Assembly (NCBI GenBank): GCA_965178125.1
Contig: OZ237743.1
Span: 372,001-436,000 of the forward strand
DNA: 64,000 bases
Origin: Bilabrum cf. latius
Taxonomy: Eukaryota
Direction: 5' to 3'
The notes under the pieces: model-generated
Database searches by the model: none
Seen by the model: only the letters and a program-made list of their open reading frames with translations
Told to the model about the DNA's origin: nothing
Position numbers and translations under genes: made by a program
In this document: positions 1 to 64,000 of the stretch, piece after piece
How positions within the stretch are numbered: the stretch's first letter is position 1
Layout: each line of letters starts with the position of its first letter

Positions 1-427
1 CTGGCTTGTTTCGGCGCACGTAAATAGGCCTTTCCTATTCTTGTAGGTGCCTTGCCAATTCGTTAAATTCATTTCCGTTGTCTATTTCTAGCCTCACGGT
101 GGGTTGCTAGACATTTCCCCGCATGAATATCTAGAGAGCTTTTTCATAGGTTTCTTTCTGGGTTTTCTTCAATAGCGGTTCTGCGTCTATTAATTTGGTG
201 TGTAAATCCACAGCAGTTAAAAGGTATTTATATCCTTGGTCGTTCGGCAATTGGAGTAAATCCATCTGAACGACTGCGTTTGGCTGCGGGACGTTCACCT
301 TGGGTCTGTTCTTGCCCTTGGGTTTCTTTGGGCGTTTCATTAAATTGCGGATTCTAGAGTCCTAGGGTATGTGAACCCCTTGGAGAACATATTGGAGAAC
401 ATTCGGGTATTCTTTCAGGATTTCCAT
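1..427 (-). CDS. Retroviral-type (rve, DDE) integrase, N-terminal part; runs off the window
   Basis: With TAG=Gln reads MEILKEY...MKRPKKP...QMDLLQLP..GYKYLLTAVD...LEIDNGNEF, colinear with the B integrase (QADLLFLP..GFKYVLSYVD..LKIDDGTEF). In-frame TAGs include 362 and 131. Confidence 0.85.
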
Positions 428-1023
428 TTACTATAAGGGTCGGTAGGGAAACCGTGGGAAAATCTTGGGAAATGGTGGGATACCTTGGGAAACACCAGGG
501 ACTTCTTTGGAAAAGGTGGGATTTCTTTGGATGCTGTATGAAATTGATTGGAAACCGAGGGGAAACCTTGGGAAAGTCTTGGGAACCTTCGCTTCGGAGA
601 AAGACCAGACGTTCCCTCGGCTCCCGTCTTGACTCTAGATGGAGACCGATGTAGAAACTCTTCAGTAAGTCTAAAATTGAGTTTTGCCCTGCGAAGTAGG
701 GACAAATTCGTTCCTTCGGCTCCCGTATCCCTCTAACAGCAAACACAGGGATGTTTTTGGGAGGCCGTTGGATTCTTCAAATTTCTTCTGACACTTTTAT
801 AAAAACATCTCTGTCATTGCTGTAGGAGAAATATAGGAGTAGTAATAAAAGATAAACTTTAAATTCCCCTACTTTGTAGGAGATAAAAAGTAGTCTGTTT
901 TATGAGACATGGACTATGAGACACGCTACGGAATTCTACTAGGAGACTAAAGAGTAGTAGAGAGGCGCGAAGCGTCTCCTCTATATTGCTGTGGAGCCCC
1001 GCTCATCACACTTGACCCCCCCC
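1..1023. mobile_element. Terminal part of endogenous virophage/Polinton-like element 'A' (UAG-recoded), nested in a gene of element B
   Basis: Carries an rve integrase and a repetitive non-coding end (CTTGGGAAA-type units ~450-590). Ends in a C8 run (1016-1023), the reverse complement of the G8 that starts element C, and truncates B ORF 1024-1254. Confidence 0.7.
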
Positions 1024-1254
1024 ATTCTTTCCTAAGTAAATTCTTCCATTACCGCCATCACTGGTAATGAATGGTACACCTTTTCCGTCAGCTTGACTGA
1101 AAGAAATTCCAGCATTGCTTGCCAAGTCTCCATTACCATCAAGTGTTGATATTAAATTAAAACGATTAGTATTTATAATACTATGACCTTGGCAATCTAA
1201 TTGTTTGGCTATATTTAAATAACCGATGGTTGAAAAGGGCATATTATCCGACAT
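1024..1254 (-). pseudogene. Fiber-like virion protein paralog, 3'-truncated by element A
   Basis: N-terminus MSDNMPFSTIGYL matches neighbour MSDNMPFSEIGYL. The frame runs into the C8/G8 terminus and stops 5 codons later. Confidence 0.6.
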
Positions 1255-1283
1255 ATTACAAGACTATAGATTATTTTTTTAAA

Positions 1284-2300
1284 TTAAGGTGGAGCCGATA
1301 TGGGGTCAAGTGGTGTGGGTGGTAAGTTGGCAGCGGTTATATTCCCCATAACTACTAAATTACCATTTGTTAAGTTCAGGCGGAATAAATTAAATTGACT
1401 TAACTTATCAGTTATGCGGATATGGTTATCATCATCACATTCAATGAAACATTTTATATCACCATTGTTCTGAATAGCAATTTGAGAACCGGCTTGAAAA
1501 GTTGTAGCATCAATAAAATTGGCATTTACTATATTATTATTGCCAGCATCATCACCAACAGTTAAAACTTGGGTTAGATTCTGAGGACTTCCACCTCCTC
1601 CCGATTGTGAATCAACATAAGCTTTTGTGGCTACATCCTGAGCATTGGTAGGATTCCCTATATTTACGATTGATTGACCTCCTCCGTCATTTCCTTGATT
1701 TAATACTTGGGTAAGATTCTTATTAGAAGCATTATCAACATATGATTTAGTTGCGGCATCCGTTGAATCTGAGGGTTGTGAGAGGTTTTTGATTTGCTGA
1801 TTTCCCGCATCGTTTCCAACGGTTAACACTTGGGATAGATTCTGAGAACTTCCTCCGCCACCCGATTGTGAATCAACATAAGCTTTTGTGGCTACATCTT
1901 GGTCATTAGTTGGGTCATTGACATCAGTTATTTTGTTATTTCCTGCCGAATTTCCAACGGCTAACACTTGGGTTAAATTTTGATTGGTTCCTCCGCTTCC
2001 ACCTTGTTGAGAATCTACATATGATTTAGTGGCAGCATCCTTAGGGTCTGTTGGTGAAGACACATTCTTTATTTGACCGTTCCAATGAAATTCTACACCG
2101 TCAGTATAATCACCACCGGTTCCTACATTTTTGGATTGTAGTTTAAGTAAGGAGTCTTCTTTAGCCGTTAAATTAAAAGCAAAATTATTACTTGAACTGC
2201 TTATTTCTATATCACCTTTAGTAGATGTATCTCCTTTCACTTCTAATTCTTTGCTTACAGTTAGATACCCTATCTCAGAAAAAGGCATATTATCAGACAT
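1284..2300 (-). CDS. Putative fiber/adhesin-like protein with internal repeats
   Basis: 338 aa; about four repeats of NLxQVLxxGNxAG...PT..xDxATKxYVD with Gly-rich linkers. Confidence 0.6.
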   Translation of the reverse strand: MSDNMPFSEIGYLTVSKELEVKGDTSTKGDIEISSSSNNFAFNLTAKEDSLLKLQSKNVGTGGDYTDGVEFHWNGQIKNVSSPTDPKDAATKSYVDSQQGGSGGTNQNLTQVLAVGNSAGNNKITDVNDPTNDQDVATKAYVDSQSGGGGSSQNLSQVLTVGNDAGNQQIKNLSQPSDSTDAATKSYVDNASNKNLTQVLNQGNDGGGQSIVNIGNPTNAQDVATKAYVDSQSGGGGSPQNLTQVLTVGDDAGNNNIVNANFIDATTFQAGSQIAIQNNGDIKCFIECDDDNHIRITDKLSQFNLFRLNLTNGNLVVMGNITAANLPPTPLDPISAPP

Positions 2301-2338
2301 ATTAATATGAAGTAGATTATTTTTCTAGTCCTTTTATA

Positions 2339-2605
2339 ATGATTGAAACTGTTTTATCTGGAATAGCCATCACTATGACTGGGATATATGCCTTCTATAA
2401 AATTATTAAGAAGGTAAAGAAATCTAATTGCTTGGTAGAAATGGCTGACGGCACAAAATACGAAATAGACTTTGATGATGTGTTGAAAACCCTGGAAAGT
2501 ATAGATGATGTAAAGGAGTTTTCAAAACAAGATATGGATAAAGTTAAGAAAGCCTTTAAATCCTCTGTTGATAAAGTGAAGTCCAAACGAAAAGTTGACC
2601 TCTAA
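2339..2605 (+). CDS. Small virophage protein with N-terminal hydrophobic segment
   Basis: 88 aa ATG..TAA, TCTA motif upstream. Confidence 0.55.
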   Translation: MIETVLSGIAITMTGIYAFYKIIKKVKKSNCLVEMADGTKYEIDFDDVLKTLESIDDVKEFSKQDMDKVKKAFKSSVDKVKSKRKVDL

Positions 2606-2891
2606 ATTATTATCTAATGGTTTTATAATAATGGTTATGAAAATTAAAAAGAAGACTTGTAGTCATAAAGGTAAATGTTCTTGTAATGGTAGCTCCAAGA
2701 AAATGAGAGGAGGCAAAAAAGAACCAACACACAACCAACTGATGAGCATATTCAACGACCTATTACAGAAAGAAAATGTTTTAGACAGATTCAAACGAAC
2801 AAATATTGAAGCTTTAGATAATGTTGATGAATTGTCTGCGAAGGAAAGTCGGGAAGAATACAAAGAAGCTCTCATAAGATTAAGATACATT

Positions 2892-3353
2892 TGATGCCAG
2901 AGTGTACGCGCAACCTAGTCTCGTTAACAATCAGACATGGCAAGACCTGACAAAGCTGTGCCTGTGCGCGACCCTTGACCGGACTGACCGGGGCTGGGAA
3001 GAGCACGTGCACTACTCCGCCGAGGAGGAGGGGGTTGGGAGGGTGGGCAAAAATTACCCAATCTCCGCCCCTCTCCTGAACACAGAGAGGGTATGCGCGT
3101 CATCGCAAGCAATCCGTTGGCTTGGTCGCACCTTCCCGGTCGCAACCGCCATCGGAACCCAACGAGACGTTCACGCGCTCCCACTCTGGCATCAACACCG
3201 AACCCCATCCGGCGTTAGGATCATGATGCCAGAGTGTACGCGCAACCTAGTCTCGTTAACAATCAGACATGGCAAGACCTGACAAAGCTGTGCCTGTGCG
3301 CGACCCTTGACCGGACTGACCGGGGCTGGGAAGAGCACGTGCACTACTCCGCC
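2892..3353 (-). repeat. Ngaro-1 B2-A2-B1 split-repeat block
   Basis: 130-bp B copies at 2892-3021 and 3224-3353; 174-bp A copy at 3050-3223 matches 8588-8761. Confidence 0.95.
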
Positions 3354-3393
3354 AAATCTTACCGCCATGTCTTGTACGCTGCGGCTGTGTGGC

Positions 3394-4480
3394 TCACTCC
3401 AAGTTCAGCCGCAGCGCGCTGGCCAGCACCCACACTGGCCTGTTCAAATCGAGGCTCCTGCCGCCGAGCTCCAGAGGAGGCAAACCTTCCCTGACGCCCC
3501 GCAAGTACACCTCGCATGCAGATGCCGACTTCCATCTGCCAAATCGCCTAATGACCTCGAAGGCGACCCCAGCACGGTCCAAACACATCACTGCCGCGAT
3601 GCGGATGGAATGTCCGTGCACCGCTCCTGCAACTTCTCGTGAGCAGAAGCTGCGGAGCGCCCGTACTACCTGCGCCTTGACGATCGGCTTCGTGTTCGCC
3701 ACGAAGACTGGCCCTGACGTGGGGCAGCTGAGCGCCAGCTACCGGGCGTAGTCTTCGTCTGCGCCTGCAGTTGGGGCGTGGCTCGCTGCTGCCCACGCCA
3801 CGAAGGCTCGCACGCCGCAGAACCTGCTGCCTGTGACTGCCCATCGTCCGGCTCTGCAATGGACTGCGATGGGCTCTGCGGCTTGGATGGAGAACTTGGC
3901 TGGGCCGTCGGCTTTGTGGAGGCCCAGGCGGATGGCAACACCATGGATGCGTCCGTCTCGCGTGATGAACTGCACTTGCTGCCATTGGAGGCCGGCTTGT
4001 CGTCTGGACGCACCGACGAGCTCTCCCAGCCGGAGGCCCCCACAGAAGCAGAGACAGACAGCTGTCCGAGCAGCCTACTCTGTTGTGCTGCAACCGGCTG
4101 TCGAGAAGCACCGTCGGATTGCGCGGAGTGGGGCTGAAGATCGACGCAACGGGTGCGCCGATGGCGATGCTTTGTGGTAGTACCGGAGGATGCTGTCGAG
4201 CTAGCTTGACCGTGGGACGCCGCACGCTCCTGTGGACTCGATGACGACTCGCTAGGCATTTCTGGTGTATGTAGCGATGGTGCCGCCACTGAGAGGCGAA
4301 CATTCCCCTAAGAAGACTGCGAATCTCGAGAGCGCTGCATTGAGCCTGAACGCGAAGAGTCTGCGAGCTGCTGGAAGATGCCCGTCCATGAAACTGCGGT
4401 CGATGTCGTACCACGTGAGGAAGTTGTCGAAGTGCCCCCACGCCGTGCGCAACCCACTGAGTCCAGAGTGGCCACCAGCG
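3394..4480 (-). CDS. Tyrosine recombinase (Ngaro-1); start uncertain
   Basis: ORF pieces 4252-4452, 3739-3975 and 3394-3702 share one frame and are joined at TAGs. Motifs HSIRIAA and FGRWKSASACEVY; ends TGA. Confidence 0.85.
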
Positions 4481-7400
4481 TGAAATGGTCGTGCTTGTAC
4501 AAGGTGTTCCAGATCGGCGTGGGACAGTCGACCTGATACACCGCGTCCAGGTGCGTGTATGCCTCCTGTGAGCCGCGGCTCAAAGCGTCCGCAACGACGT
4601 TGTCCTCGCCAGGAATGTGTTTCACGTGAATCTGCACATCTTGCGTTGTCTGCAGTACGAAGATAGGGCGAAGTAAGGCTGCCATGATGTGGCTCTTGGG
4701 TCTGCCGTAGCGTATCAGCTACACGGAAGCATCATTATCACACCACAAACGCACCACACGTGCACGCAGGTGCTGTCGCCAATGCGCCAGTGCCAACAAA
4801 CATGTTGCAAGTTCTGCCGCCGCTACATCCTTCGCCTCTAGGCGATGCGGCCAAGTGCCCTGGATGCCGGTGTGCGAAGTGATGTTGCCGTCCTTGTCGT
4901 GGAGAAGCAGCTCGGCGCCGTAGCCTGTCACCGACGCATCAGTGCGAAGGATGGGACAGTCAATGGTGCCCCGCATCGGAAAGCTGCGCCCGCCTTTGCG
5001 CTGGATAGCCACCTGGAATCCCTCGAGGATTTCCCCAACTGTGAAGCCACCCTTGGACACAAAGGAGGTGGGGACCCACACCTCACCTGGTCGTGACCGG
5101 CTGGCCTACTTGTGAAGGGCCCAGCCCTTGGCGTCATACAGGGGACGTAGAGCACCGCGCATACCATAAAGTGCGCCCGACAGGAAGGACAACTTGCCGA
5201 CCAAGGTCTCAAAGCTAGACAGCAGCATCCCCTTCGTCGTGAGTGCCTCGTGCAGTCTGCGCAGGACGTCGTTGGCCTTGTCCTTAGGGCACCGCACCTC
5301 GTGTTTGATCAAGTCGTAGGTGAGGCCCAAGTACTCGAACACCGGGGCTGGGGGCCCTTGCTTCAATGCTTTCGAGATGCTGACGGGGAAGTTTGTGGAG
5401 TCCAGCTGCCCCATGGCTCGAATTGCCCATGCATCGACTTCGTGATCTCCGCCGAGGCAGGCAAAGTCATCTACAAACACCTCATTTTCGACCTACCAAT
5501 GGCGGGACTAGTCTTGGGCCGTCTTGACATGTCCCGTTGTCGTGCTAGCGGCAGGCGGGGTGGACGTTGCTGACGAGTTCGCCTGGGGCGCCTGGTCCGT
5601 CGTGCTGGATTGGGCGTTGGCGTGCTGCTGCTTCCGGCGTCGTTGCTTCTGCTTGTGTCTCCGTCCGGGTCGCATGGCCCTGCCAATGGACTGCTCCTCG
5701 AGGGCTTGGGCCAAAGCCGAACTGATCGTAGTTGCGAAGGCGGGAGATGATGAGCTGCCCATAGAGAGCCTGAAATCTTGCACGATGCGCCCGTCGGGCA
5801 GCTTGATCAGGTTGTATTGGAGATCCTCCACTGCCACCGGCAGGACCCGAAAGTACGAGGAAATGTCGACGACGTATCCGCTGGCACGCTTGGGGCAGGA
5901 TCGAACTGCTGCGGCTGCCGAGCGCAGCACGTCCATGCTGCTCGTCTGCTGCACAGGCGTGGCTGCACTGTAGTCGATGGCCTTGTTCAGACCGGTACGC
6001 TGGCCGTTCACCTTGAGTGAGGAGTCCTGAAGGAACCGTAGCTTTGTCGAGTCCTTCTTGGGGATCACCAGCGGCCGGGCCCGGGCTGTGTCGAAATCTT
6101 TGGGTGACACGAAGTCACGCTCGCCAGCCCGCATGGAGCGCCCGATCTCGCAGGCGATCTCCCACTTTTCTTCCGGAGACAGCTTACGGTCCTTGTAGTC
6201 TAGATCGTGCTCTTTGGGCACCTCGTCCACGATGGCTAGGGGGCAACCATAGTTCAGTGCTGCCAGTACACGCTCGACTCGTGGGAGGGCTTTAAACTCG
6301 GCAAGGGACGGGGCCTTCCTCGGTGTGCGGCCGCCAAACAGAACCTCCCGCCGGGTCCGCAGTGTTGCAGTCTAGCGAGGCACCTTGTCGAAGTACTTGC
6401 GTGGCGTGAATGCCAGCGGGTCGTCGTGAACCTTCAGGTGGAGCCGCTCACGGTCCCACGTCGCAGCTGGAGCCTCCACGAATTCGCCGGGACATTCTCT
6501 GGTACGCTGGTGATCGTCCTTTCGCTGTATGAAGTCCTCGACGGAGGGTGCTGTCGTCCCTGCCCACTCATGGCTTGGATCCGGAGCTGGATATGCCCAG
6601 TCAACGAATGCTGGAGAGATGTCCGTCCTACCTGGCAGCCTCGTGGATGACGCCGTGGGCGGCCGCTGCGGTCGCTTAGGGCGCGCTAGGGCCACCAGGA
6701 CTGGGTGAAGCGCGGGCGTTGACGTGACAGGTGGTGTGGAAGCAGCACACGCGTCCGATGTGGTGGTAGTCTGCGTACGCCCCTGCGGCAGTGTTGGTGT
6801 TGGAGTGCTGGGCTGGCTCTGACGTGACGTACCTCGTGGGGGGGGGTCAGGTGAAGGCTCCTTGGACTTCCTGGTGGAACCCCCGTCCTGCCGGTCCGCA
6901 CGCTGGTGCTGGCCACCTTGCTGGCCTGCACCGCCACGTCCACGGCCTCGACGGTGTCGACCTCCGCCACGATCGGCACTGGGCTGGTCGCTGTCACCCC
7001 CGCTGCGCCTGGAGCCTCCACTGCCCCCGCCTCCACTGCCCCCGCGGGGGTCGAAGTGACGGGACAGTGCTGCTCGACGGGACGGCGCCTGCATGTCAGC
7101 CTGGACTCCCTGTAGCAGTCCGCGCACGAGGCCAGGTTCGCCTGATCTGCATGCCTCAGTGGCCCACGGATGCAGCAATTGTAGGAGACGCATGCAGTCG
7201 CCAGAAGAGCACGAAGGAATCTCATTCCCAACAAGGTCACGAATCTCAACGTCACAGCGTTCGCCTGTATGGCGCCAAGCATGGGAGGAGAGCATCTCAA
7301 AGGCTGAACTTCCGCGTGGTATCACACACACAGCGGCAAACACCACCTCTAGTCGGGACGCCGATGCAGATGATGCCCCGGAAGCACTAACCAAACGAAG

Positions 7401-8108
7401 AAAATCATTGCGAACCTGCCCCAGGGTTTTCCAATCGGGCACTAGTGATGCTGGACACGACCACGAGCTGCTGCCCTGCGGCAACCAGGACGGCAAGGGC
7501 GCCGTCGAATGCACGCAAGCAGCGCGCACGAGCACACAGCCTAAAGCAAAGGAAATAGCCGAGTAAATAGTGCATAGTAACTCGCTAGATGGCACCTACT
7601 TTTCTCGTCCGCCTGCAGCAGACGACTCCGAGTTGGACGCATCAAACTTCCCAAAACTGGCATTGCTCATCGGCAGAGCTGCATGAAGCCGGCTCGTGAA
7701 CGAGAAAATAGCCGATTCAATCTTGGCTCTCGTCACGGCCTGACCAAACAGGGCACGGGCCAGTTCTGCAGCGAAATCGCGGCCGCTAGCGTCCAAATGA
7801 AGCGCGTCAGCCTAGCAAAACCGCGGCATGAACGCGGATTGGCGAAAGATCGAGGTCAACGTTGCCAAGAAATCATCAGAAAACCAATTCTGCATTCGAA
7901 TTGCAGCGATTGAAGGTGCAGAGGCCTCACGCTACAAAATCTCCACTGGTTGCGAGCGAACGACCGCGGAGTCCACTGCCGTGCCTGCGCCCGGTGAAAC
8001 TGGGTCAATTGAAGACGCAGGCTGCGGTGAGGCAGAAGATGACACAGGAGGTTCACGGGGTGGCTGATGAGCGGGTGTAGCGTCGACCGGTGGCGGGGAT
8101 GAGTGCAT
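3588..8108 (-). CDS. Gag-like/RT/RNase H polyprotein (Ngaro-1), one frame under TAG=Gln
   Basis: All track fragments from 8279 to 3666 are one frame broken only by TAG. RT motifs KLRFLQD, VDISSYF, LSMGSSSSP, FVDD; RNase H motifs TDAS, AELA, CDN, NVVADALSR. First in-frame ATG 8108, frame open from 8591. Confidence 0.85.
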
Positions 8109-9348
8109 CGAGGCTGCTAGTCGGTGCGAGAAGTACCATTGCAATTCCACGTGGGCGGAGAGGTGCGACAGCAGCTCTTCCTGGCGCAGAGTCGGAATGC
8201 TGTGCCACAGCGCAAACAGGCGTAGATGCAGAATTGTCGCTGGGTCGGCCGTTCCCCGCAGCGTCGTGGAGTGCAACACTGCCCGTTGGAGATCCCCAGG
8301 AAGGCGGCCCCAGACCGCGTCAAGCTAGCGGCTGGTGCCCGGAGTCACGCCGGGGGAGTCGTAAGCCGGAGACACACGAGGAAGAAGAAGCTGAGGGCCT
8401 GCCGGGCCCGTTGACCGTGATGCTGCACTGCTGAGCGCCTCCGCGAGCACTGTCGGATCGCCGAAGTCCCGAGTGCCTGGCCTACCGGGGAGCCTGCCCG
8501 AGGCAGGTGGAGGTTGGTGCCGCGGGGGTGAAGACGTTGAGAAGTTGGGCTGTCCGCTGCGCTGGGTATCTGCTGCTGTCCCCGGGGAAAATTACCCAAT
8601 CTCCGCCCCTCTCCTGAACACAGAGAGGGTATGCGCGTCATCGCAAGCAATCCGTTGGCTTGGTCGCACCTTCCCGGTCGCAACCGCCATCGGAACCCAA
8701 CGAGACGTTCACGCGCTCCCACTCTGGCATCAACACCGAACCCCATCCGGCGTTAGGATCAGAAAGCGAGAAAGATAATTTGCTCAAAAATACAATAAGT
8801 GATTCTAATCAATCACGTAATGAACTGATGCGAATGTTGAAAGAAGTTCTGTCAATCTATAAGAAACCTTTAGAATCCACTTTTAAAGCCAGGCTTCGTG
8901 ATAAACTTAGGGTCTTAATGAGGAAACTAGAAGAAAAAGATGGTAGTTTTCCAGACAACCCGAATGGGGAGAGGGCAACACGTTTGGTTTTGGATATGTC
9001 ATACTTGATTAATAAGGTTTTAGAAGTAGGAAGAGACATAGATTTTGAGGAACTAGATGAAAGAACACTGAACGAACCTGACGACCGAGATGAATTTTCA
9101 ATCAGAAGAATTGAAAGAGAGCAAAGACTGAGAGAAAACCCAGATGATGACTTTGGAAGAGCATTGAATAGACTACAAGGCAGAGGCAAACCCAAATACA
9201 AGCCAAAAAATGCGATGAAGTCCAAAGTAATGAAAATTGCTTCTCAACTACAAAAGAAGCACGGCTACAACAAGTCCAAAGCCCTAAAACTAGCATACAA
9301 AGTTATGAAAGAATAATTTAATGAGCAATGTATCAATTACTGATTAAA

Positions 9349-9957
9349 TTATTTGAACCCCAAATATTCTTTAGCCCTTCTATCTAATTCCTTTATGAAC
9401 TTCTCTTCATTGTATTTGTCAATCCTCCGTTTCAATTTATTGTTATTGTTAATGAACTTCGTTAGGTTATCCATAGGCTTCCCCATCAATTTCAGTAGAC
9501 TCCGAAACCGTTTCAAGAGCTTGTAGAATTTGCCTTCTGAAAGCAACTCTTCCATTTCTTCTTTTAGTGTTTTGACATACTTAGATTTAGGTGGAAGACC
9601 TCCCATAAAGAAATTATTCGTTATCTCCATTGGTCTGTCTCCCTCATACAGGATGTATAAGTCTAACTTGATGGTTCCTTTTAGGTTGTTCTTAATCCAA
9701 TTCCTCTTTTTTACGATGTCGTTCAACTTGTTGAATTTCATTTCATTTGTTTTGAACTCACTGAAAAATATGTTTGGTGGTAGTAATTGAATGTATTTAA
9801 TTAAGGCACTGACAAAACTGGAGGGAGAACCTAACCAAACTTGATTAAAGTCTATGTCGGAGAAGTATTTCAAGCTAGGGTCAGTATAAGAACCGACTAT
9901 AAAGGAATCTTCAGGCTTTCCAAGACTAATTACTTCACGGATGTAAGTTAAATCCAT
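9349..9957 (-). CDS. Putative nucleotidyltransferase (Pol beta-like fold)
   Basis: IVGSY...FSDIDF (GS..DxD) motif and a later KLDL strand. Confidence 0.55.
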   Translation of the reverse strand: MDLTYIREVISLGKPEDSFIVGSYTDPSLKYFSDIDFNQVWLGSPSSFVSALIKYIQLLPPNIFFSEFKTNEMKFNKLNDIVKKRNWIKNNLKGTIKLDLYILYEGDRPMEITNNFFMGGLPPKSKYVKTLKEEMEELLSEGKFYKLLKRFRSLLKLMGKPMDNLTKFINNNNKLKRRIDKYNEEKFIKELDRRAKEYLGFK

Positions 9958-9984
9958 ATTATTATCTAACCTGATATAATAAAA

Positions 9985-10710
9985 ATGTTTTCATTAACCA
10001 AGACAAAAGATAATTTTCCTATCGCAACAGATGGCAAACAAAACATCTTTCTGAATCCAAGTGTAAGGAAGAGCGAGGATATAATTGAATCTGACAAGGA
10101 GCTAGAATTATTGCCGTCAAGTAAAGGACGGGATGTGATTTATTTGTTTGCCTGTTCTGGAGCTGGCAAGACCCACTTTTGCCGTTGCTTCTGTTATCAG
10201 TACAATAAGATGTACCCCAAGAATAAGATTATCCTATTCAGTGATTCAGGGGATAAAAGCGATTTCAAAGGAGTGAAGAATTTAAAAGCCATTCCAATTC
10301 ACGATATGGAAGCCGAGGAACTTAAAGCATTACCACCAACCACATTCAAAAATTGTTTGTGTCTGTATGACGATATAGACTCCATCATTGACAAAAAGTT
10401 AAAGGATGCCGTGTATTCTATTATGGCTAGAAGTTTAACGACAGGAAGACATCACGACACATCAATGCTAATAACTAGTCATATAGGAGCTTCCGGCAAT
10501 TTGACCAAAACGATATTGAACGAATGCCAAAAATTAATCCTTTTCCCGAATGCTAGTAGCCAAAACGAATATATAGCTACTAAATACGGAGGTTTGACCA
10601 AGGAGCAGACAAATGATTTCTTGAATAGAGAAATAGAGACCAGATGGATTTGCTTAAACCGTCATATGCCTCGTTATGTGTTGACACAATTTGAAGTCAT
10701 ACCAATTTAA
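9985..10710 (+). CDS. Genome-packaging ATPase (FtsK-HerA/A32-like)
   Basis: Walker A ACSGAGKT, Walker B CLYDDID, GRHH motif. Confidence 0.92.
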   Translation: MFSLTKTKDNFPIATDGKQNIFLNPSVRKSEDIIESDKELELLPSSKGRDVIYLFACSGAGKTHFCRCFCYQYNKMYPKNKIILFSDSGDKSDFKGVKNLKAIPIHDMEAEELKALPPTTFKNCLCLYDDIDSIIDKKLKDAVYSIMARSLTTGRHHDTSMLITSHIGASGNLTKTILNECQKLILFPNASSQNEYIATKYGGLTKEQTNDFLNREIETRWICLNRHMPRYVLTQFEVIPI

Positions 10711-10730
10711 AATTATTCTAAGCTTGTTTA

Positions 10731-11156
10731 ATGTCAATATCAGATAAAATTAAGGCAATATCCAAACAGATAAAATACTTTTGGTTTTATCCGCAATCAA
10801 AAACTAATATTGAATTAGTTCTAAACAATAATTCAAAATCAGGGAGTAAGCCAATTTTAAAAGAAGAGCTCAAGAATGAGGGTATCTCAGATTTAGTTCT
10901 TTTGACTGTTCATTATATCAATAAAACCAGTAAATTATTTCCTGAAAATGTGTATATAACATTGAATTTTTACAGACTTGAGAATAACAGGTTTTACAAA
11001 AATAATGAAATCATACCAGGCAAAGTATTTTTCAAGAAATCATTCTTAGAGAAAAAAGGCTTCAAGCTCAAATACTTGAAAAGGATAGTAAAAAAATTCT
11101 TCTTTGATGGTGTCAGAACTCCATTATTAAACTGGAAGTATTACTCAAGTTTATAA
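10731..11156 (+). CDS. Hypothetical virophage protein
   Basis: 141 aa ATG..TAA with upstream TCTA motif. Confidence 0.55.
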   Translation: MSISDKIKAISKQIKYFWFYPQSKTNIELVLNNNSKSGSKPILKEELKNEGISDLVLLTVHYINKTSKLFPENVYITLNFYRLENNRFYKNNEIIPGKVFFKKSFLEKKGFKLKYLKRIVKKFFFDGVRTPLLNWKYYSSL

Positions 11157-11732
11157 TCAGAATCCGTATTTCTCGTAAAACCAGAGGCAAATCATCTCAT
11201 CAGGTTTCAGCTGTCGTTTAAGACATTCATTTATGACCCATTGCTTAAACTCATCTATTGATTTATTCTCATATACAGCAAAAGCAACCGCCCAGCGACC
11301 GCAGGTGTTAATACCATTTTCTAACCTTTGATAGTCTGTCGTATTTACATTAATTGTATATCCTTCTCTTCTCAACTTATTCATTAAGTCCATAAGATAA
11401 GGTCTTTCTCTCAAATGACTTGTTATTGTGCCTTGATATTCGTCAAATTGTTCTTTTAAAGTGTCTTCACCATATGAATCACAAATATCAATCTCATATT
11501 CGGAGAGATGACGTAGGCATATCCAATGCCCAACAGAAGTATTTCCTTCCAGTTTAGAGGTATACAACATAAATGTGAAGTTTGGGAGAGCCCCAGAGTC
11601 AAATAATTGTTTGTGGTTCTTTACTTTTCTAATTTGATTATGCTTTATAACTTTGGCATATGGAAATAGGGTTTTGAGGTCATTTCCTGAAAGCATATAT
11701 TCCATTAAGCTTTTCATTTTAAGATTGTTCAT
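11157..11732 (-). CDS. Virion maturation cysteine protease (adenain/Ulp1-like)
   Basis: GHW...DSYG...YQ...TCGRW catalytic motifs. Confidence 0.9.
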   Translation of the reverse strand: MNNLKMKSLMEYMLSGNDLKTLFPYAKVIKHNQIRKVKNHKQLFDSGALPNFTFMLYTSKLEGNTSVGHWICLRHLSEYEIDICDSYGEDTLKEQFDEYQGTITSHLRERPYLMDLMNKLRREGYTINVNTTDYQRLENGINTCGRWAVAFAVYENKSIDEFKQWVINECLKRQLKPDEMICLWFYEKYGF

Positions 11733-11757
11733 TTTATATTATCTAACTTGATATAAT

Positions 11758-57773: not shown

Positions 57774-58839
57774 GAACTTAGACTACAGATCAGATTTGTT
57801 CCTTCAATCATACCCATTGGCTCATGTTTACGGCTGCTGCCGTCCCTTCTGGTTGGCAGCTACCAAAAAGAAAATATCCTTGCCCACGGTCTCGCGGACC
57901 CACTGGGCTTCACCCTGAACGGCTGGTTCTTCACCAGTCCACCTGAATGCTATACCCGGTATTCATCTGACACTACGAATGTACACACCACTTTCTCAAT
58001 GCATGTCGACTGGCCTCGTCGCTTCAGGGCTTCTCGTTCCCGTGTACTGCCCTAAGGTCCGTGTGCGCCGCACCCTGCATCGCCAGCTCGACACTATCCT
58101 CTCAGCTTACACGTACAGGTCATGGCTGACCTTCTATTCGTCCCGTCTACCCGCCCGCCTTTTGGCATCTTCTGCGCGCTGCTGGCCATGCAGCCCGCCG
58201 CCGCTTGCGTAGCCCTCGTGCCTGGCACCTGAAGCCCCTCTCTCCCGTTGTGTCCTCCCCTTGACACAACAGTCGTCGGCTGTGCTGGTGTCCCCTCGTG
58301 TTCCTCTTTGCCTCACCGCCGCCCACCTTGACTTCCGGAATCATCTCTGGTCTCCATCGCTTCAATCCTGATGTCCTAGTGCATATACCAGCGCTTCTGC
58401 CGGGGGGGGACAACAGGTGGTGGTAGGTACACCAAGCGTTTAGGACGAGGGCTACGCTACGCTCGCCCCTCCTTTAAAGGCATATTTAGCAACTCAAGTG
58501 TTTCCCCTATAAACCTAAATGATTTCACAGGGGGTTCCCCAAGAACCCCTATAGAACCCCTCTATGTACCCATTTTCAGATATAAAATTTACTCCTACGA
58601 AGTAGGGGTAAATTGAAGAATTCTAATATTTAACCCCCTTATAAACTCTAACAGCAAAGACAGAGATGTTTTAGTAAAGTAGGAAAAAATGAAGAAATTA
58701 ACCAAGTGTCCAAAATATCTCTGTGTTTGCTGTAGGAACGGAAGGATGAATTCCCAAGAGACCAAGAGACCAACCGAGGATTTCCCCAAGAGAACAAGGT
58801 ATTTTATCAAGAGACCGAGGTATGTTCCCAAGCGACAAA

Positions 58840-59620
58840 CCGATAAACCGACCGATGAACCGACCGATGAACCGACCAAGGATTTCCCAAGGATTTCCCA
58901 AGGATTTCCCAAGGATTTCCCAAGGATTTCCCAAGGATTTCCCAAGCGACTAAATTGTTCTCCGAAGCAACCAAACCGATTACCCAAGAGATGATACATT
59001 ATAAGGAAAACGAAAACGTATTTTAAGTCCCTTTGGAAAAGTCCCCCAAGATGCTCGGGCTTTGCCCTCCGCTCTTTTGATATCTTTTTCAAAGATTAAA
59101 ATTGAGAGATTTTACAGGTCAATTTTAAGAGACTTAGAAAGAATAAATATATTTTCCAATTAAAATTAAATGTTGTAATTCCTATGATGCCACCATAAAA
59201 ATTAAAAGGAAAACGAAAACGTATTTTAAGTCCCTTTCGAAAAGTCCCCAAAAAACTTGTCAATTTTACAGGTCAATTATAAGAGACTTAGAAAAAATAA
59301 ATTAAGTTCCCTATTAAAATTAAATGTTGTAATTCCTATGATGCCACCATAAAAATTAAAAGGAAAATAAAAAACAAATTATAATTGTTTTCCAATTAAA
59401 AACACAAAAATTGATTGAAAAATTTTGACAATATAGGATACAAAGAAATATTAAAATTAATTTTCCAAGATGCTCGGGCTTTGCCCTCCGCTCTTTTGAT
59501 ATCTTTTTCAAAGATTAAAAATAAATGTTGTAATTCCTATGATGCCACCATAAAAATTAAAAGGAAAATAAAAAACAAATTATAGAATATTAAAATTAAT
59601 TTTCCAAGGATTTCCCAAGA
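58840..59620. repeat. Repetitive terminal region (probable TIR) of element C
   Basis: (GATTTCCCAAG)x6 at ~58880-58946; ACCGATGAACCG repeats; ~45-55-bp direct repeats near 59165/59320/59522 and 59047/59466. Confidence 0.8.
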
Positions 59621-59801
59621 GATGATAATTTAAGCCATTCTATATCACTATAGTAAATGAACCCATTTTTAAAGGAGTTGATGATAGAGCATATTGTCAA
59701 GCAAATTAATCCACGTATTTGGAAAAAATTACACGAAAAACTAAAGGAATACAAGAAGCTCGGGCTTTGATATAAGTAGAAGACTATACTATAAAGTACT
59801 T

Positions 59802-60086
59802 ATGAAGCCACATACCTACGATTTTGAAAAGGTTGTTGAAAATTTTCAATTTAAAGCACCCTCAAGACGCAAGAATAAGAAGTATGATGTTTTTGACGAA
59901 AATGATGAATATATTACATCGTTTGGTGATAGGCGGTATTAGCAATTTTACGATAGAATAGGGTATTACAGCCATTTAAATCATTTAGATACGGACCGCC
60001 AATTTAGATACTTCAAACGACACGGTATCGAAGTAAAACCAAGAACCCCAAAGTTCTTCTCACATTTTTACCTTTGGAGTTCATAA
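59802..60086 (+). CDS. Small conserved viral protein (KKY...SFGDRRYQ...RH...LW)
   Basis: 94 aa with one in-frame TAG; homolog of 12825-13163. Confidence 0.7.
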
Positions 60087-60617
60087 ATGACACGTCAATA
60101 AATACACTAATTCATCAGGATTTAATGTATGTTTCTTACAAACCTTATCCACCCACTTTTTATACTAATCAGCGTTTTTTCCCCTATTCCAAAGACGAAC
60201 TATACAATGTCTCCCGCAGGTTGCTATATCCATTCCATCCGCCTAAAACTAATATGGGTTATAGTCAATCTTATACGGAGAATGATACATTAAATATATT
60301 AACTCAGGGTCTTCATAAAAACGTTTCCGCACGCTTTCACTCATTGTGTGCTATTGCCTATCAGGACGAATTCCATAACTGTCAAAGAAGTATATTGTTT
60401 TATTACGCTTAAATAAGCACACCCAGTGTCCAGAATTTATTTCTTCTTGGTATAGAATGATACAACAATTACAACGACTAAATAATCCATCAATACTATT
60501 GTACTATCCTAATTCTGTATATGGAACGATGTTTACCGACGTAGGAAGAAACCCCTTAATATTTGGTGGAGTTTGGAGGAGAACACGAATATCACTATCG
60601 CTAAGAGCATAATCCAT
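60081..60617 (-). CDS. Virion maturation cysteine protease (178 aa, TAG=Gln)
   Basis: GHWVCL...FDSYG...YQFQ...TCGRH; absent from the standard-code ORF track. Confidence 0.9.
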
Positions 60618-60807
60618 AGATTTATTATAGAATGATATATTGGGGGAGATAAAAGCATCTCTTAACCACTATTTAAGCGTAGAAGTATTTCTACAAAATC
60701 CGTTTTGGAATTTGTGGATAGCATAAAAGACAATCATTCAAAATAAGTTTTCAACAAAAAGACAAAACACTTTAGAAAAAAAAAAAACATATAGTAAATA
60801 CACTAAA

Positions 60808-61710
60808 ATGGCTCATTTTTCTTGGAAGGAAACTACAAAATCAACACCCATCGCATATGACACTCACGGAAAACGTATTTTATACACGGCGGAAAACACA
60901 GACAACCAATTTGGAGATGATAGTATGTCATTTTAGGATTTTCAAGTATCATCTCTTACAGGGAACAGATTTCCGCAGAGGAAAATGGATTTATTAGCAC
61001 GACACTTAATCAAACAGGTCGAACCCCTAGACGAAGACATCAAATATTTGTATGAAAAAGCATAGGAAAAGAAACATAAAGAGATTACATTAAAATAGGG
61101 TGAATTCCAATCACTACCAAATCCAAACGGAAGAGAGGTCATTTTTATCACCGCACCATCAGGCGCGGGTAAGTCTACTTGGGTTTCCAAATATGCTAAG
61201 AATTATCATAGAATGTTTCCGAACAGGAGAATTATTTTATTTTCTCGCGTATAGTAGGATAAAGTCTTAGATGAAGTGAAAGGACTGAAAAGGATTATTT
61301 TAAATGAGGAACTGGTGGTGAACCCGATTGATATTCATTAGGAATTAAGGGACGCCTTAGTAATCTTGGATGATATTGATACAATCAAAGATAAAAAATT
61401 AAGGGAAGCCCTCAATCATTTACAGGATGAAATATTATAGGTTGGAAGACATAGCAATACTTCTGTATTAATCACAAGTCATTTAAGTACCAACTATAAA
61501 AGTACCCGTATTATTCTTGCGGAAAGTACAAAATTCGTTATTTTTCCGTAGTGTTCATCCGCACATTCTCTAAGGTATTTGTTAAAGAATTATATAGGAC
61601 TTGAGAAACAAGAAATCTCTAAAGTCTTAAAAATGCCTTCCAGGTGGGTCTGTGTCCACAGGAATTACCCGAGGTATTTAATTGGAGAAAGGTAGGCTTA
61701 CCTTATGTAA
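60808..61710 (+). CDS. Genome-packaging ATPase (300 aa, TAG=Gln)
   Basis: TAPSGAGKST, LVILDDID, VGRHSN; several in-frame TAGs; ends TAA. Confidence 0.9.
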
Positions 61711-61739
61711 TTTTGGTCAAACTTTTTATAAAAGTTTCT

Positions 61740-61976
61740 TTAAATAATATTCTATTCTCGTATATACCGACTTGCTTGAGGTAAACTCATACCAGTCTAC
61801 TACATCACCATTTTTACAAGTTTATTGCGACGTTTCATTTTCTCAGAAACTTTTCGTTTGGGCTTTAAACCTTTTCCAACTTTAATATGATGGTTTTTAA
61901 CTCTATTTAAAGCGTCTTGTTCTTTCTATAGCGCGAGTTGTTTGGTTCTCTATATAATCCACTTATCAATATCCAT
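61740..61976 (-). CDS. Small basic protein (78 aa), putative core/DNA-binding
   Basis: GKG...RRNKLVKMVMQQTGMSLPQASRYIRE when TAG=Gln. Confidence 0.6.
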
Positions 61977-62041
61977 TATACTATACACAAACACTTTATT
62001 TTTTATTTTTTGGTCAAGCTTTTTATAAAAGCTTATAGTAA

Positions 62042-63223
62042 ATGAAAACTGCTAAAGTGAATGCTCTTATTCAGCAAGCCCTAGAGAGGGAACTTGACAA
62101 TGCTAAAATGTTAGATTTACAGGCAAGGGACGACGTAGATTTAGAAACAGAATATAGTGATTTTATAAGGAAAAGGGCAAAAATTGAACGATTAAAAGAA
62201 AGTGGAAGGTATGGAACTCCAGCGTAGAGAAAATAGGCAGACCAAAGCAACGAGGAAATCATATCTAAGTCAATATCTGGTATAATGAAAGGTATTATTG
62301 AGGGTAAAAATGTAAGTCCAGCAGTGAAAGCATTGAAGGATTTTGTTGGTAATATCAATATGTCTCCACAAATGAAGCAACAACTAGCCCGTCAATACGT
62401 AAATATTGAGAGATTTCAAAGGAAAGGCTACGAAGGACTGCAGAGAGTTCCAGCTGAAGACAGAAAACAACTCTTAGAATTAGGGAAAGTTATATAGGAG
62501 GCATCCGGACAACGAATACCGTAGGGAATGTTGGGAATTGATTAGTAGCCAACATCTTTACAAACACCTGCTCGAACAACAAGAAGAAACACGTTTTCCG
62601 CTCCAACACAAGTACAGCTTCCAGAAAAGGGTTCGATTGCGTATAAATAGTTATTGGAAAGAGCCAGAGAAAGAATACAACAAGACAGACCCTTAACTGA
62701 AAAACAACGAATAGCGTGGGATTTAGAATAGGGAAAGAACTTCTCACAAAGAACATCACAGGGACAGACAAATATGTTTTAGCATTTTCCAGAGGGTTCA
62801 AGTAGTAATGCGTCAAAAACATCAAAAGACTTAGATGCCATATTAGCCGCAGCGAGCAATGAAAGACCACTACCGCAAGGAAGCACTCCGGGGGCGTGGG
62901 ACCCAGAAACTGGTGAGTACTATGATATGCCGAGTAGGATAGAAATTGAGCAGGGAATTGGAAAACGTGCTACTAGACCTGTGTAGCGATTTACGGGGTT
63001 TAGTCCGCCCTATGGAATGTAGTAGCCTGATTTAGAAGACCCACCATCACGCGCAATGACTGTAGAAGAAAGTGGAAAACCAAAAAAGGGGAAAGGATTA
63101 CGAGGTGGAAAAAGGATTATCTATGATACAGCAATGAATGTAGCCAAGAAAGTAAAAGGAGCCGATAAAGATATTCATCATTAGGTTGCTATGGAACTAT
63201 TACATCTTTTAGGAAAAGATTGA
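62042..63223 (+). CDS. Hypothetical virophage protein (393 aa, more than 10 in-frame TAG)
   Basis: No TAA/TGA over 393 codons of AT-rich DNA; GKGLRGG motif near the C-terminus. Confidence 0.75.
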
Positions 63224-63288
63224 CCAAAACCTCTTATTTACATCTTTTGGCAACCTGATAAAAATTATTTCTGTGGATATACTATAAA

Positions 63289-63780
63289 ATGTCAGTTTCA
63301 AATCTTCTATCTAAGAACAGTCTAGACCTTATGTCTCAAACTATTACGTGTAATGTTGTGAGTAGCGACGCAATTAAAGTGTCCGCAATTACTAACTCTA
63401 CGGGAGCAGTCATAGGCAATCCAAGTATTGAATTCAAAGACGGAGAGCCTTATATGGAGTGGGGTGAAACTGTTCTACGGTTTGGAAAAAACGGAGCGTC
63501 TGCTGGTTGTCAGTTCAGTATGAGCGAAGAAGGAGAAAGATGCGATATTTCACTAGTTGGTTCATTCAAGACTTCTCAAGAGGGTGTTGTTGGGCTGAGT
63601 GAGGTTGCTGGAGCTACATTGGCTGACGCTTCTACCCCTATTAATACGTCAGCAGAGCGAAAGTTCAAGGGCGCTTTAGTGTATAATGGAAGCGACAACG
63701 ATGTCTATGTGGCGATTGGCAGTTCTTCTACATCTAGTTGGAAATCCTTAGTGTCAGGTTCACTTATTACACCATCTTAA
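63289..63780 (+). CDS. Hypothetical virion/fiber-like protein
   Basis: 163 aa, starts MSVSNLL, beta/Ser-Gly-rich. Confidence 0.55.
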   Translation: MSVSNLLSKNSLDLMSQTITCNVVSSDAIKVSAITNSTGAVIGNPSIEFKDGEPYMEWGETVLRFGKNGASAGCQFSMSEEGERCDISLVGSFKTSQEGVVGLSEVAGATLADASTPINTSAERKFKGALVYNGSDNDVYVAIGSSSTSSWKSLVSGSLITPS

Positions 63781-63836
63781 TTATACTTTAGAAAAGTAAT
63801 CAAACCCACCCCATAATTATAAACGTCTATAGTAAA

Positions 63837-64000
63837 ATGAGTTCTCCAGACCGATTTTACATTACCGCAAACATACGAAATAACGAAGATACTTTCCAAC
63901 CAGCGACCTATAGCGAAACCCGCAAGTAGCCATTATTAGATAAGGATGTTGGTGATTATACGATGTCAGTATTCCGGTTTTCCATAAGCACCAATTCAAT
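63837..64000 (+). CDS. Minor capsid (penton) protein, N-terminal part
   Basis: FYITANIRN...YSETRKQPLLD...DYTMSVFRF aligns with B penton YVDLELYN...PIVD...YKLSVVRF. Confidence 0.75.

What the first reader, a model, noticed from the sequence alone, without database searches (positions are those of the whole stretch)
1..64000. Host nuclear code reassigns UAG (only) to glutamine
Seen in sequence: (i) TAG sits at invariant Gln positions: RT P*GEILSP (30378) and *AGFR (30096), and the protease oxyanion Gln (60243). (ii) Paralogs swap TAG and CAG at the same codon: S8 23155 vs 46408/54489, S8 22468 vs copy 3 EFQLNRD, LRR 41848 vs 50529. (iii) Multi-kb ORFs are broken only by TAG, while TAA and TGA both end genes (TAA: 43357, 38688, 39937, 61708). 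This is not the common ciliate UAR=Gln code. Established: eukaryotic UAG-only reassignments are rare (e.g. Iotanema, some ciliates). Inference: this may be a further independent case in a GC-rich, virophage-bearing flagellate.
Basis: partly seen in the sequence, partly recalled or inferred. Interest (0 to 1): 0.95.

Follow-up and report, generated by a model that had tools for sequence, protein, structure and literature searches.

The report
UAG read as glutamine in a protist
In this stretch of a GC-rich eukaryotic genome the stop codon TAG behaves as an ordinary glutamine codon while TAA and TGA still end genes, a rare but already described kind of genetic code.

Summary

- **ORF lengths.** With TAG read as sense, the GC-rich part resolves into frames of 2536, 1620, 1512, 1263, 1256, 1104 and 853 aa. 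Reading TAA or TGA as sense gives a longest ORF of 631 or 621 aa.
- **Codon counts.** Eleven GC-rich ORFs (12,113 codons) hold 90 in-frame TAG and end in TGA (8) or TAA (3).
- **Amino acid.** A Codetta-like test on 18 TAG columns in three families picks Gln: log-odds Q 12.2, K 2.9, E -3.5. The same procedure recovers all 20 standard residues.
- **Invariant Gln.** All three columns that are at least 80% Gln in homologues are TAG here: two RT motifs and the protease Gln nine residues before the invariant Cys.
- **Selection.** Paralogues carrying 2-12 TAG each are under purifying selection, dN/dS 0.31-0.55.

Not testable here:
- tRNA-Gln(CUA)
- eRF1
- housekeeping genes
- RNA or peptides
- the organism's identity

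Whether this is a new lineage is therefore open.

The window also holds virophage-like elements of two kinds. One uses TAG for 44% of its Gln codons. The other has none.

The parts
24801..32411 (+). LINE-like retroelement ORF, 2536 aa, 18 in-frame TAG, ends TGA; RVT_1 domain at aa 1728-1940
30096..30098 (+). TAG at the RT column that is Gln in 156 of 162 aligned homologue domains
30378..30380 (+). TAG at the RT column (PxG) that is Gln in 155 of 158 aligned homologue domains
2892..8771 (-). GC-rich Ngaro-type retroelement inserted in virophage element 1. It has split direct repeats in the order A1-[ORFs]-B1A2B2. The pol ORF 3588-8450 carries 11 TAG and an RVT_3 match. The overlapping tyrosine-recombinase-like ORF 3394-4452 carries 4 TAG, with a Pfam match below cut-off.
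32763..39939 (+). DIRS/Ngaro-like retroelement with three ORFs. ORF1 32763-35324 has 7 TAG. ORF2 35376-38690 has 12 TAG, a weak RVT_1 match and ends TAA. ORF3 38527-39939 has 3 TAG, a Phage_integrase match and ends TAA.
20125..23895 (-). Subtilase-like paralogue 1, 1256 aa, 12 TAG, ends TGA
43357..47148 (-). Subtilase-like paralogue 2, 1263 aa, 11 TAG, ends TAA
51282..55820 (-). Subtilase-like paralogue 3, 1512 aa, 10 TAG, ends TGA (no Pfam hit itself; 63% identical to the others)
40600..42195 (+).
900..19400 (.). Virophage element 1, AT-rich and interrupted by the Ngaro insert. Genes: major capsid 13211-15055, penton-like 11758-12828, ATPase 9985-10710, protease 11157-11732, DUF5754 and DUF5824 genes. 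3789 codons with no in-frame TAG except the one at 12825-12827.
12825..12827 (-). The only TAG in an element-1 frame. It overlaps the TAA of the convergent gene, so it looks like a standard-code stop of the DUF5754 gene. Read as Gln it adds 20 residues.
58588..64000 (.). Virophage-like element 2, AT-rich, running off the window. Genes: DUF5754 gene 59802-60086, protease 60081-60737 (6 TAG), ATPase 60808-61710 (9 TAG, ends TAA), ORF 62042-63223 (13 TAG). TAG makes up 34 of 77 Gln codons.
60243..60245 (-). TAG at the protease column that is Gln in 25 of 25 homologues, nine residues before the invariant Cys. The same residue in element 1's protease is written with a standard Gln codon.
1..887 (-). 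End of a third virophage-like element. It holds the rve integrase ORF 2-427 (runs off the window, 4 TAG). The stretch 736-887 is an inverted match (71% over 154 nt) to 58588-58733.

Best explanation
The organism's cytoplasmic ribosomes read UAG as glutamine, and UAA and UGA remain the only terminators. This is the assignment of NCBI table 15.

Shown here:
- TAG sits inside long, intact, selected reading frames of host-like genes, retroelements and two virophage-like elements.
- TAG falls on glutamine positions of their homologues.

Inferred from other UAG-only lineages (Panek et al. 2017, PMC5304391, section 9 read):
- A tRNA-Gln with anticodon CUA decodes UAG. It would be one base away from tRNA-Gln(CUG), and CUA cannot pair with UAA.
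- eRF1 has lost affinity for UAG through changes in its N-terminal domain.
- Everything translated in this cell must then fit the code.

The retroelements and two virophage-like elements use TAG freely. A third virophage element has none and still looks written in the standard code.
For: 1. ORF structure. TAG=Q merges fragments into ORFs of 853-2536 aa. The TAA=Q and TGA=W controls do not: their longest ORFs are 631 and 621 aa.
2. Codon counts. Eleven GC-rich ORFs (12,113 codons) hold 90 TAG against 345 CAG and 147 CAA. Their terminal codons are TGA 8 and TAA 3.
3. Identity of the residue. 18 TAG columns were scored in RT (172 aligned domains from 150 hits), ATPase (44 hits) and protease (25 hits).
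   - Summed log-odds: Q 12.2, K 2.9, E -3.5, all others below -11.
   - The same procedure returns the right residue for all 20 standard amino acids.
   - All 3 of the 3 columns with at least 80% Gln in homologues are TAG in the window: 156/162, 155/158 and 25/25.
   - Solved R2 and LINE-1 structures show Q at both RT sites.
4. Closest relatives. The ATPase TAG at residue 211 is Q in 5 of the 11 nearest homologues printed (P0004-P0007, P0010); the other 6 have E. The TAG at residue 296 is Q in the nearest one.
5. Paralogues. The partner codon of a TAG is CAG, CAA or TAG in 28 of 71 pairings (39%). For CAG/CAA the figure is 71%, and for 11 other residue classes 1-6%. TAG is kept in two or three diverged copies at 4 columns.
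6. Selection. dN/dS is 0.40-0.45 for the subtilase-like copies (dS 0.58-0.71). It is 0.31-0.55 for the second family.
7. TAA and TGA terminate.
   - The ATPase ends at TAA two residues before the end of its nearest homologue.
   - The protease ends at TGA level with its homologues.
   - Element 2 holds 34 in-frame TAG and 32 CAA.
8. The DNA is real. 9 run rows from 4 studies hold the 10-kb stretch queried, 40000-49999.
Against: - The window holds no housekeeping gene, no tRNA, no eRF1, no RNA evidence and no peptide evidence.
- Most TAG-bearing ORFs belong to mobile elements.
- 15 of the 18 external TAG columns are not Gln-dominated. Examples are ATPase residue 211 (E 36/43), residue 248 (K 29/43) and residue 296 (G 35/41). 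The call for Gln rests heavily on three invariant columns plus the nearest relatives.
- TAG sites are less conserved than CAG/CAA sites, 39% against 71%.
- Virophage element 1 has no sense TAG. One of its genes seems to end in TAG.
- The last TAG of subtilase-like copy 1 lies 7 codons before its TGA and could be a stop.
- A minor terminating role of UAG is therefore not excluded.
Confidence: 0.88

Rival explanations
1. UAG is ambiguous. It is mostly read as Gln but also terminates in some contexts, as in codes with context-dependent stops.
For: - The DUF5754 gene of element 1 has a TAG exactly overlapping the convergent gene's TAA. With the TAG as stop the gene ends 3 residues after a shared motif, and its single detected homologue ends 7 residues after it. 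Read through, the gene runs 24 residues past the motif.
- The last TAG of subtilase-like copy 1 lies 7 codons before its TGA.
Against: - No ORF in the window needs a TAG stop.
- All 32 ORFs tallied end in TAA or TGA, although this is by construction of the ORFs.
- TAGs lie throughout genes, including residue 296 of the 300-residue ATPase, whose nearest homologue reads on.
- The element-1 case is better explained by an element written in the standard code.
Confidence: 0.06
2. UAG is a sense codon for another residue (Lys or Glu), or is read as a mixture of residues.
For: Many ATPase and protease TAG columns are dominated by E, K, D or G in distant homologues. Lys ranks second in the summed log-odds at 2.9.
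Against: - Gln leads Lys by 9.3 and Glu by 15.7 (natural-log odds).
- Three invariant Gln columns are TAG.
- Paralogue partners are Gln-like in 39% of pairings, against R 14% and E 7%.
- The nearest ATPase and protease relatives have Q at several TAG sites.
Confidence: 0.03
3. The TAGs are nonsense mutations (CAG to TAG) in decaying pseudogenes and dead transposons. The code is standard.
For: - CAG/TAG swaps between paralogues are single transitions.
- Much of the window is repetitive, mobile DNA.
Against: - 90 TAG stand against 0 TAA and 0 TGA in frames of up to 2546 codons. The off-frame rate predicts about 24 TAA+TGA per 1000 codons.
- No frameshifts are seen.
- dN/dS is 0.31-0.55 at dS up to 0.71.
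- TAG is conserved across diverged copies.
- AT-rich element 2 has 34 TAG and 32 CAA but no in-frame TAA.
Confidence: 0.01
4. UAG suppression is supplied by a mobile element or a giant virus, for example through a suppressor tRNA. It serves only those elements, and the host's own genes use the standard code.
For: - Most TAG-bearing ORFs are retroelements or virophage genes.
- Virophages with tRNA genes, including one reading an ochre stop codon, are on record (Paez-Espino et al. 2019, PMC6905037, passage seen).
Against: - No tRNA gene lies in the window.
- Two paralogue families without mobile-element hallmarks carry 2-12 TAG each and are under purifying selection.
- Retroelements of host-like GC content are translated in uninfected cells.
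- One virophage element lacks TAG altogether.
Confidence: 0.02

Closest known systems
UAG-only to Gln nuclear codes (NCBI table 15 assignment): the fornicate Iotanema spirale, the ciliate Protocruzia tuzeti and two phyllopharyngean ciliate lineages. Sources: Panek 2017, PMC5304391, abstract and section 9 read; McGowan 2024, PMC11687900, two Discussion passages seen.
   Same: UAG is Gln while UAA and UGA stay as stops, so the usual UAA/UAG coupling is broken.
   Different: The DNA here is GC-rich (about 59%) and laden with retrotransposons and endogenous virophages. From recall, that is unlike ciliate macronuclei. Only a transcriptome is reported for Iotanema. The organism is unidentified, so identity with or independence from these lineages is untested.
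UAR = Gln codes (NCBI table 6 type): many ciliates, hexamitin diplomonads, some Ulvophyceae, Streblomastix and Amoeboaphelidium (list taken from the PMC11687900 passage)
   Same: A stop codon is captured for glutamine.
   Different: TAA is never in frame here and ends 19 of the 32 ORFs tallied. Reading TAA as Gln does not lengthen real genes.
Endogenous mavirus-like virophages interrupted by Ngaro retrotransposons in Cafeteria burkhardae (Hackl 2021, PMC8547959, passages seen)
   Same: An AT-rich virophage lies in GC-rich host DNA and is interrupted by a GC-rich tyrosine-recombinase retroelement of about 6 kb with A1-[ORFs]-B1A2B2 repeats.
   Different: A term search of that paper found no mention of 'genetic code'. 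Here the retroelement and two of the three virophage-like elements are written with TAG as Gln.
Phages that read TAG as Gln ('genetic code 15', for example crAss-like phages; PMC9523058, abstract seen in the listing)
   Same: The same codon gets the same new meaning in a virus-like element.
   Different: The recoding here is not confined to the virus-like elements: host-like genes and retroelements carry TAG as well. In the phage case, the abstract seen says only that phages can use a code different from that of their bacterial hosts.

Membership tests
Nuclear code with UAG = Gln, UAA/UGA = stop (table 15 type) | In-frame UAG in intact, conserved, selected genes | tested here: met
   90 TAG in 11 GC-rich ORFs and 34 in element 2; dN/dS 0.31-0.55.
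Nuclear code with UAG = Gln, UAA/UGA = stop (table 15 type) | UAG aligns with Gln in homologues | tested here: met
   Log-odds Q 12.2, K 2.9 and E -3.5 over 18 columns. 3 of 3 invariant-Gln columns are TAG.
Nuclear code with UAG = Gln, UAA/UGA = stop (table 15 type) | UAA and UGA are not sense codons and end genes at homologous C-termini | tested here: met
   Terminal codons of 32 ORFs: TAA 19, TGA 13. ATPase and protease ends match their homologues. Controls. The gene set is small.
Nuclear code with UAG = Gln, UAA/UGA = stop (table 15 type) | Holds for housekeeping nuclear genes genome-wide | not testable with these tools
   No genome is held, and the window holds no housekeeping gene.
Nuclear code with UAG = Gln, UAA/UGA = stop (table 15 type) | tRNA-Gln with anticodon CUA | tested here: inconclusive
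   ARAGORN finds 0 tRNA genes and Rfam gives 0 matches in the 64 kb. The rest of the genome was not available.
Nuclear code with UAG = Gln, UAA/UGA = stop (table 15 type) | eRF1 N-domain changes that weaken UAG recognition | not testable with these tools
   The eRF1 gene is not in the window.
UAR = Gln code (table 6 type) | UAA also in frame at Gln positions | tested here: not met
   No in-frame TAA in 17,148 codons of the tallied ORFs. TAA=Q gives a longest ORF of only 631 aa.
Virophage (endogenous) | Double jelly-roll major capsid, penton, packaging ATPase and cysteine protease genes | tested here: met
   Element 1 has MCP_V20_C and Sputnik_MCP_1st, V18-19, an ATPase and a protease. In element 2 only the ATPase and protease lie inside the window.
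Ngaro (DIRS-order) retrotransposon | Split direct repeats A1-[ORFs]-B1A2B2, RT/RNase H, and a tyrosine recombinase instead of an rve integrase | tested here: met
   Repeats lie at 8588-8771 / 3050-3233 and 3224-3353 / 2892-3021. RVT_3 match. The Phage_integrase match scores 22.1 bits, below the 27.1 cut-off.

The most novel reading that the evidence does not exclude
This is an undescribed, non-ciliate, GC-rich eukaryotic lineage that changed UAG alone to glutamine. It was caught together with its parasites at different stages of adaptation:
- retrotransposons and two virophage-like elements fully written in the new code;
- one intact-looking virophage still written in the standard code, with no sense TAG and one probable TAG stop now read through.

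That would make it a natural system for asking whether a code change acts as a barrier to viruses and virophages, and how fast they cross it.
Probability: 0.3. Interest if true: 0.8.

Novelty: new member of a known kind. Interest (0 to 1): 0.62.

Why it matters
Nuclear codes in which UAG and UAA have different meanings are few. The passages seen name about eight lineages (PMC11687900):
- UAG = Gln: Iotanema, Protocruzia and two phyllopharyngean ciliate lineages.
- UAG = Leu: an uncultured rhizarian and a ciliate case reported in that paper.
- UAG = Ser: Scotinosphaera.
- UAA = Lys with UAG = Glu: one uncultured ciliate.

Each new case bears on how the UAA/UAG coupling is broken.

There is also a practical consequence. 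Any annotation of this genome under the standard code will shatter genes. In this window the standard code leaves 34% of element 2 in ORFs of at least 100 aa, against 83% with TAG as sense.

TAG-rich and TAG-free virophage elements sit side by side in one host. This gives a direct handle on the interplay between a code change and mobile elements or viruses.

Tried and rejected
- **Whole genome.** None is held for this window.
- **tRNA and Rfam scans.** Nothing found in the window.
- **Sequencing runs.** No RNA holder is listed. The four runs laid are contigs and probably DNA. They show presence only, with no evidence on transcription or editing. Part of the stretch has no cover in three runs.
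- **PDB sequence searches.** The protease gave only spurious WD40 repeat matches. The integrase fragment gave none. The subtilase-like domain gave none.
- **Protease in IMG/VR.** No relative found.
- **Subtilase-like copy 1 in the 5.8-billion protein set.** No hit at E <= 0.001 among 8000 candidates of near length. Other lengths were not searched.
- **ESM Atlas.** That question was dropped.
- **JGI metagenome scan with the RT piece.** One weak 24-residue match, so the organism does not seem to be there.
- **DUF5754 protein in IMG/VR.** No relative found. One weak homologue turned up among the 80 ATPase loci.
- **Exact look-ups.** Of 9 window proteins only the protease is in the collection, on one 12.8-kb ENA contig, already translated with Q at the TAG sites. 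That source carries no name, so it says nothing on whether the code is in print.
- **Nearest relatives.** Those of the RT, ATPase and protease are unnamed metagenome proteins. The only named ones are distant arthropod RTs at 24-26% identity.
- **Literature.** Six searches found no paper joining virophages or a GC-rich flagellate with UAG = Gln. The one joint hit concerns a plastid UGA = Trp (PMC12480563, passages seen). Subscription journals and supplements were not searched.
- **Coverage metric with TAA as sense.** Uninformative in AT-rich DNA: it saturates for all loci.

Full report
**What the window is**

The 64 kb fall into two compositional classes. About 58-60% GC covers 2.9-8.8 kb and 19.6-58.5 kb. 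About 30-44% GC covers 0-2.9, 8.8-19.4 and 58.6-64 kb.

The GC-rich DNA holds:
- a LINE-like element (24801-32411, RVT_1);
- a DIRS/Ngaro-like element with three ORFs (32763-39939; weak RVT_1, Phage_integrase);
- three copies of a subtilase-like gene (Peptidase_S8 in 2 of 3 copies);

The AT-rich DNA is virophage-like.
- Element 1 has a Sputnik/V20-type major capsid, a V18/19 penton-like protein, an ATPase, a protease, and DUF5754 and DUF5824 genes.
- Element 2 has a DUF5754 gene, a protease and an ATPase.
- The left 887 bases carry an rve integrase fragment.

**Checking the observation**

All 13 coordinates of the finding hold the stated codons.

| Code | ORFs of at least 250 aa | Longest |
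|---|---|---|
| Table 11 | 25 | 614 aa |
| TAG = Q | 42 | 2536 aa |
| TAA = Q control | 29 | 631 aa |
| TGA = W control | 67 | 621 aa |

With TAG as sense the longest ORFs are 2536, 1620, 1512, 1263, 1256, 1104 and 853 aa.

Eleven GC-rich ORFs hold 12,113 codons, with 90 TAG, 345 CAG and 147 CAA. They end in TGA (8) or TAA (3). In their off-frames TAA+TGA occur at 23.7 per 1000 codons. A 2546-codon frame without either would be expected to hold about 60. These are real coding frames, and TAG is the only 'stop' inside them.

**Which amino acid**

I translated with X at TAG to avoid bias and collected homologues:
- 150 representatives for a 500-residue RT piece;
- 44 for the element-2 ATPase;
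- 25 for the element-2 protease, leaving out P0048, which is the window's own protein.

Aligning the hits to the query gave 18 TAG columns with at least 5 residues. The summed log-odds are Q 12.2, K 2.9 and E -3.5, with the rest below -11.

As a control, the same procedure applied to each standard residue of the three queries returns that residue as best in all 20 cases.

The three families contain only three columns with at least 80% Gln. All three are TAG in the window:
- RT residue 166: 156/162;
- RT residue 260: 155/158;
- protease residue 165: 25/25.

Solved R2 and LINE-1 proteins show Q at both RT sites.

The protease Gln lies nine residues before the invariant Cys. It was not tested here. 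In element 1's own protease the homologous residue is written with a standard Gln codon.

Results that weaken the case:
- 15 of the 18 columns are not Gln-dominated. Several are dominated by E, K, D or G in distant homologues, for example ATPase 211 (E 36/43), 248 (K 29/43) and 296 (G 35/41).
- At ATPase 211, five of the 11 nearest homologues printed have Q and the other six have E. At 296 the nearest one has Q.
- The nearest protease relative has Q at 3 of the 5 alignable TAG sites.

**Paralogues and selection**

In X-masked alignments of the two gene families, the partner of a TAG is CAG, CAA or TAG in 28 of 71 pairings (39%). For CAG/CAA codons the figure is 71%, and for 11 other residue classes 1-6%. 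I left out the 96%-identical pair of the second family.

TAG is retained in two or three diverged copies at four columns.

TAG sites are thus Gln-like but sit at less constrained positions than CAG/CAA sites.

dN/dS is 0.40-0.45 among the subtilase-like copies (dS 0.58-0.71). It is 0.31-0.55 in the second family. Frames of 478-1512 codons survived this divergence with 2-12 TAG each and no frameshift.

That rules out the pseudogene reading. It also rules out low-efficiency readthrough of the retroviral kind, given 18 TAG in one ORF.

**UAA and UGA**

Neither occurs in frame in the 17,148 codons of the 32 ORFs tallied. These end in TAA (19) or TGA (13). The ends are partly by construction, but two are anchored.
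- The ATPase stops at TAA two residues before the end of its 57%-identical homologue.
- The protease stops at TGA level with its homologues.

In AT-rich element 2, TAG supplies 34 of 77 Gln codons while TAA is never in frame. The UAR=Gln code is therefore not met.

**Mechanism**

The step that is shown is that UAG is a sense codon with the properties of Gln. The rest is inferred from Panek et al. 2017 (PMC5304391, section 9 read). It comprises a tRNA-Gln(CUA), the only anticodon that reads UAG but not UAA, and a weakened UAG recognition by eRF1. The window has no tRNA gene and no Rfam match, so this is untested.

**The virophage contrast**

Element 1 has 3789 codons with 142 CAA/CAG and a single TAG. 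Element 2 has 34 TAG against 43 CAA/CAG (Fisher p = 2e-17).

The one TAG of element 1 (12825-12827, minus strand) overlaps the TAA of the convergent penton-like gene. Its position relative to a shared motif:
- with the TAG as stop, the DUF5754 gene ends 3 residues after the motif;
- its single detectable homologue ends 7 residues after the motif;
- read as Gln, the gene runs 24 residues past the motif (one homologue, E = 5e-4).

Among 80 IMG/VR relatives of the ATPase, TAG makes up 72 of 609 stops (12%). So 0-1 TAG stop in 15 genes is ordinary (P = 0.46).

None of the 80 shows the recoding signature. Element 2 goes from 34% to 83% ORF cover with TAG as sense, a gain of 0.49. The largest gain among the 80 is 0.12.

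Element 1 therefore looks like a standard-code virophage that happens to be readable in this host. Element 2 and the integrase-bearing fragment at the left end (4 TAG in 142 codons) are adapted to the host's code.

Element 1 is itself interrupted by a GC-rich Ngaro-type retroelement (2892-8771) with A1-[ORFs]-B1A2B2 repeats, whose ORFs use TAG. This is the arrangement Hackl et al. 2021 describe in Cafeteria (PMC8547959, passages seen).

**Comparison with what is known, and novelty**

Passages of McGowan et al. 2024 (PMC11687900) list UAG-only-to-Gln codes in Iotanema spirale, Protocruzia tuzeti and two phyllopharyngean ciliate lineages. The kind of code is therefore known.

Whether this organism is one of them or a new lineage cannot be told.
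- Run names are coded.
- The nearest relatives are unnamed metagenome proteins.
- The JGI metagenomes do not seem to hold the organism.

Six literature searches found no paper that links virophages or a GC-rich protist with UAG = Gln. Subscription journals and supplements were not covered.

One database protein (P0048, ENA, 12.8-kb contig) is the window's protease already translated with Q at the TAG sites. So an automatic gene caller picked a TAG=Q model for that contig. This is not evidence that the code is in print.

**Verdict**

- I file it as a new member of a known kind.
- The taxon, the independence of the event and the molecular machinery remain open.

Noticed in passing
window 900-19400 versus 58588-64000: Two virophage-like elements in one host differ sharply in TAG use. 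Element 1 has 1 TAG against 142 CAA/CAG. Element 2 has 34 TAG against 43 CAA/CAG (Fisher p = 2e-17). Element 1 looks written in the standard code and element 2 in the host's code.
   Followed up: yes
window 12825-12828: The TAG of the DUF5754 gene (minus strand) overlaps the TAA of the convergent penton-like gene. This is a compact convergent stop pair under the standard code. In this host the gene would gain 20 residues.
   Followed up: partly
window 2892-8771: A Ngaro-type retroelement (A1-[ORFs]-B1A2B2 repeats, RT/RNase H, weak tyrosine-recombinase match) is inserted inside a virophage element, as described for Cafeteria EMALEs.
   Followed up: partly
window 736-887 and 58588-58733: These two stretches are an inverted match (71% over 154 nt) next to short peptide-like tandem repeats. 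They are probably termini of two related integrase-bearing virophage-like elements that both run off the window.
   Followed up: partly
window 20125-23895 / 40600-42195, 43357-47148 / 49431-50867, 51282-55820 / 56301-57773: A subtilase-like gene and an unnamed gene each occur in three copies: 63-67% aa identity for the former, 78-96% for the latter. The subtilase-like proteins keep motifs that I read by eye as the catalytic Asp, His, Asn and Ser. They also carry dinucleotide-repeat-encoded Ala-Gly runs.
   Followed up: partly
P0048 (ENA contig of 12,842 bases): A protein identical to the window's protease from Met41 onwards stands in the public collection with Q at five TAG sites. A copy of element 2 therefore exists on a short metagenome contig, and an automatic gene caller chose a TAG=Q model for it.
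   Followed up: partly
window 40651-40774 and 49330-49455: Contigs of run X7 skip 122 bases with GT..AG ends and 124 bases with GG..AG ends, just upstream of or at the start of the unnamed paralogue genes. These may be introns if that run is RNA, but the run's kind is only a guess.
   Followed up: no
window 1006-1254 and 1284-2300: A truncated duplicate of the N-terminus of the repeat-rich fibre-like gene of element 1 lies just upstream of the full copy. The 86-nt stretches across the two start codons are 74% alike.
   Followed up: no
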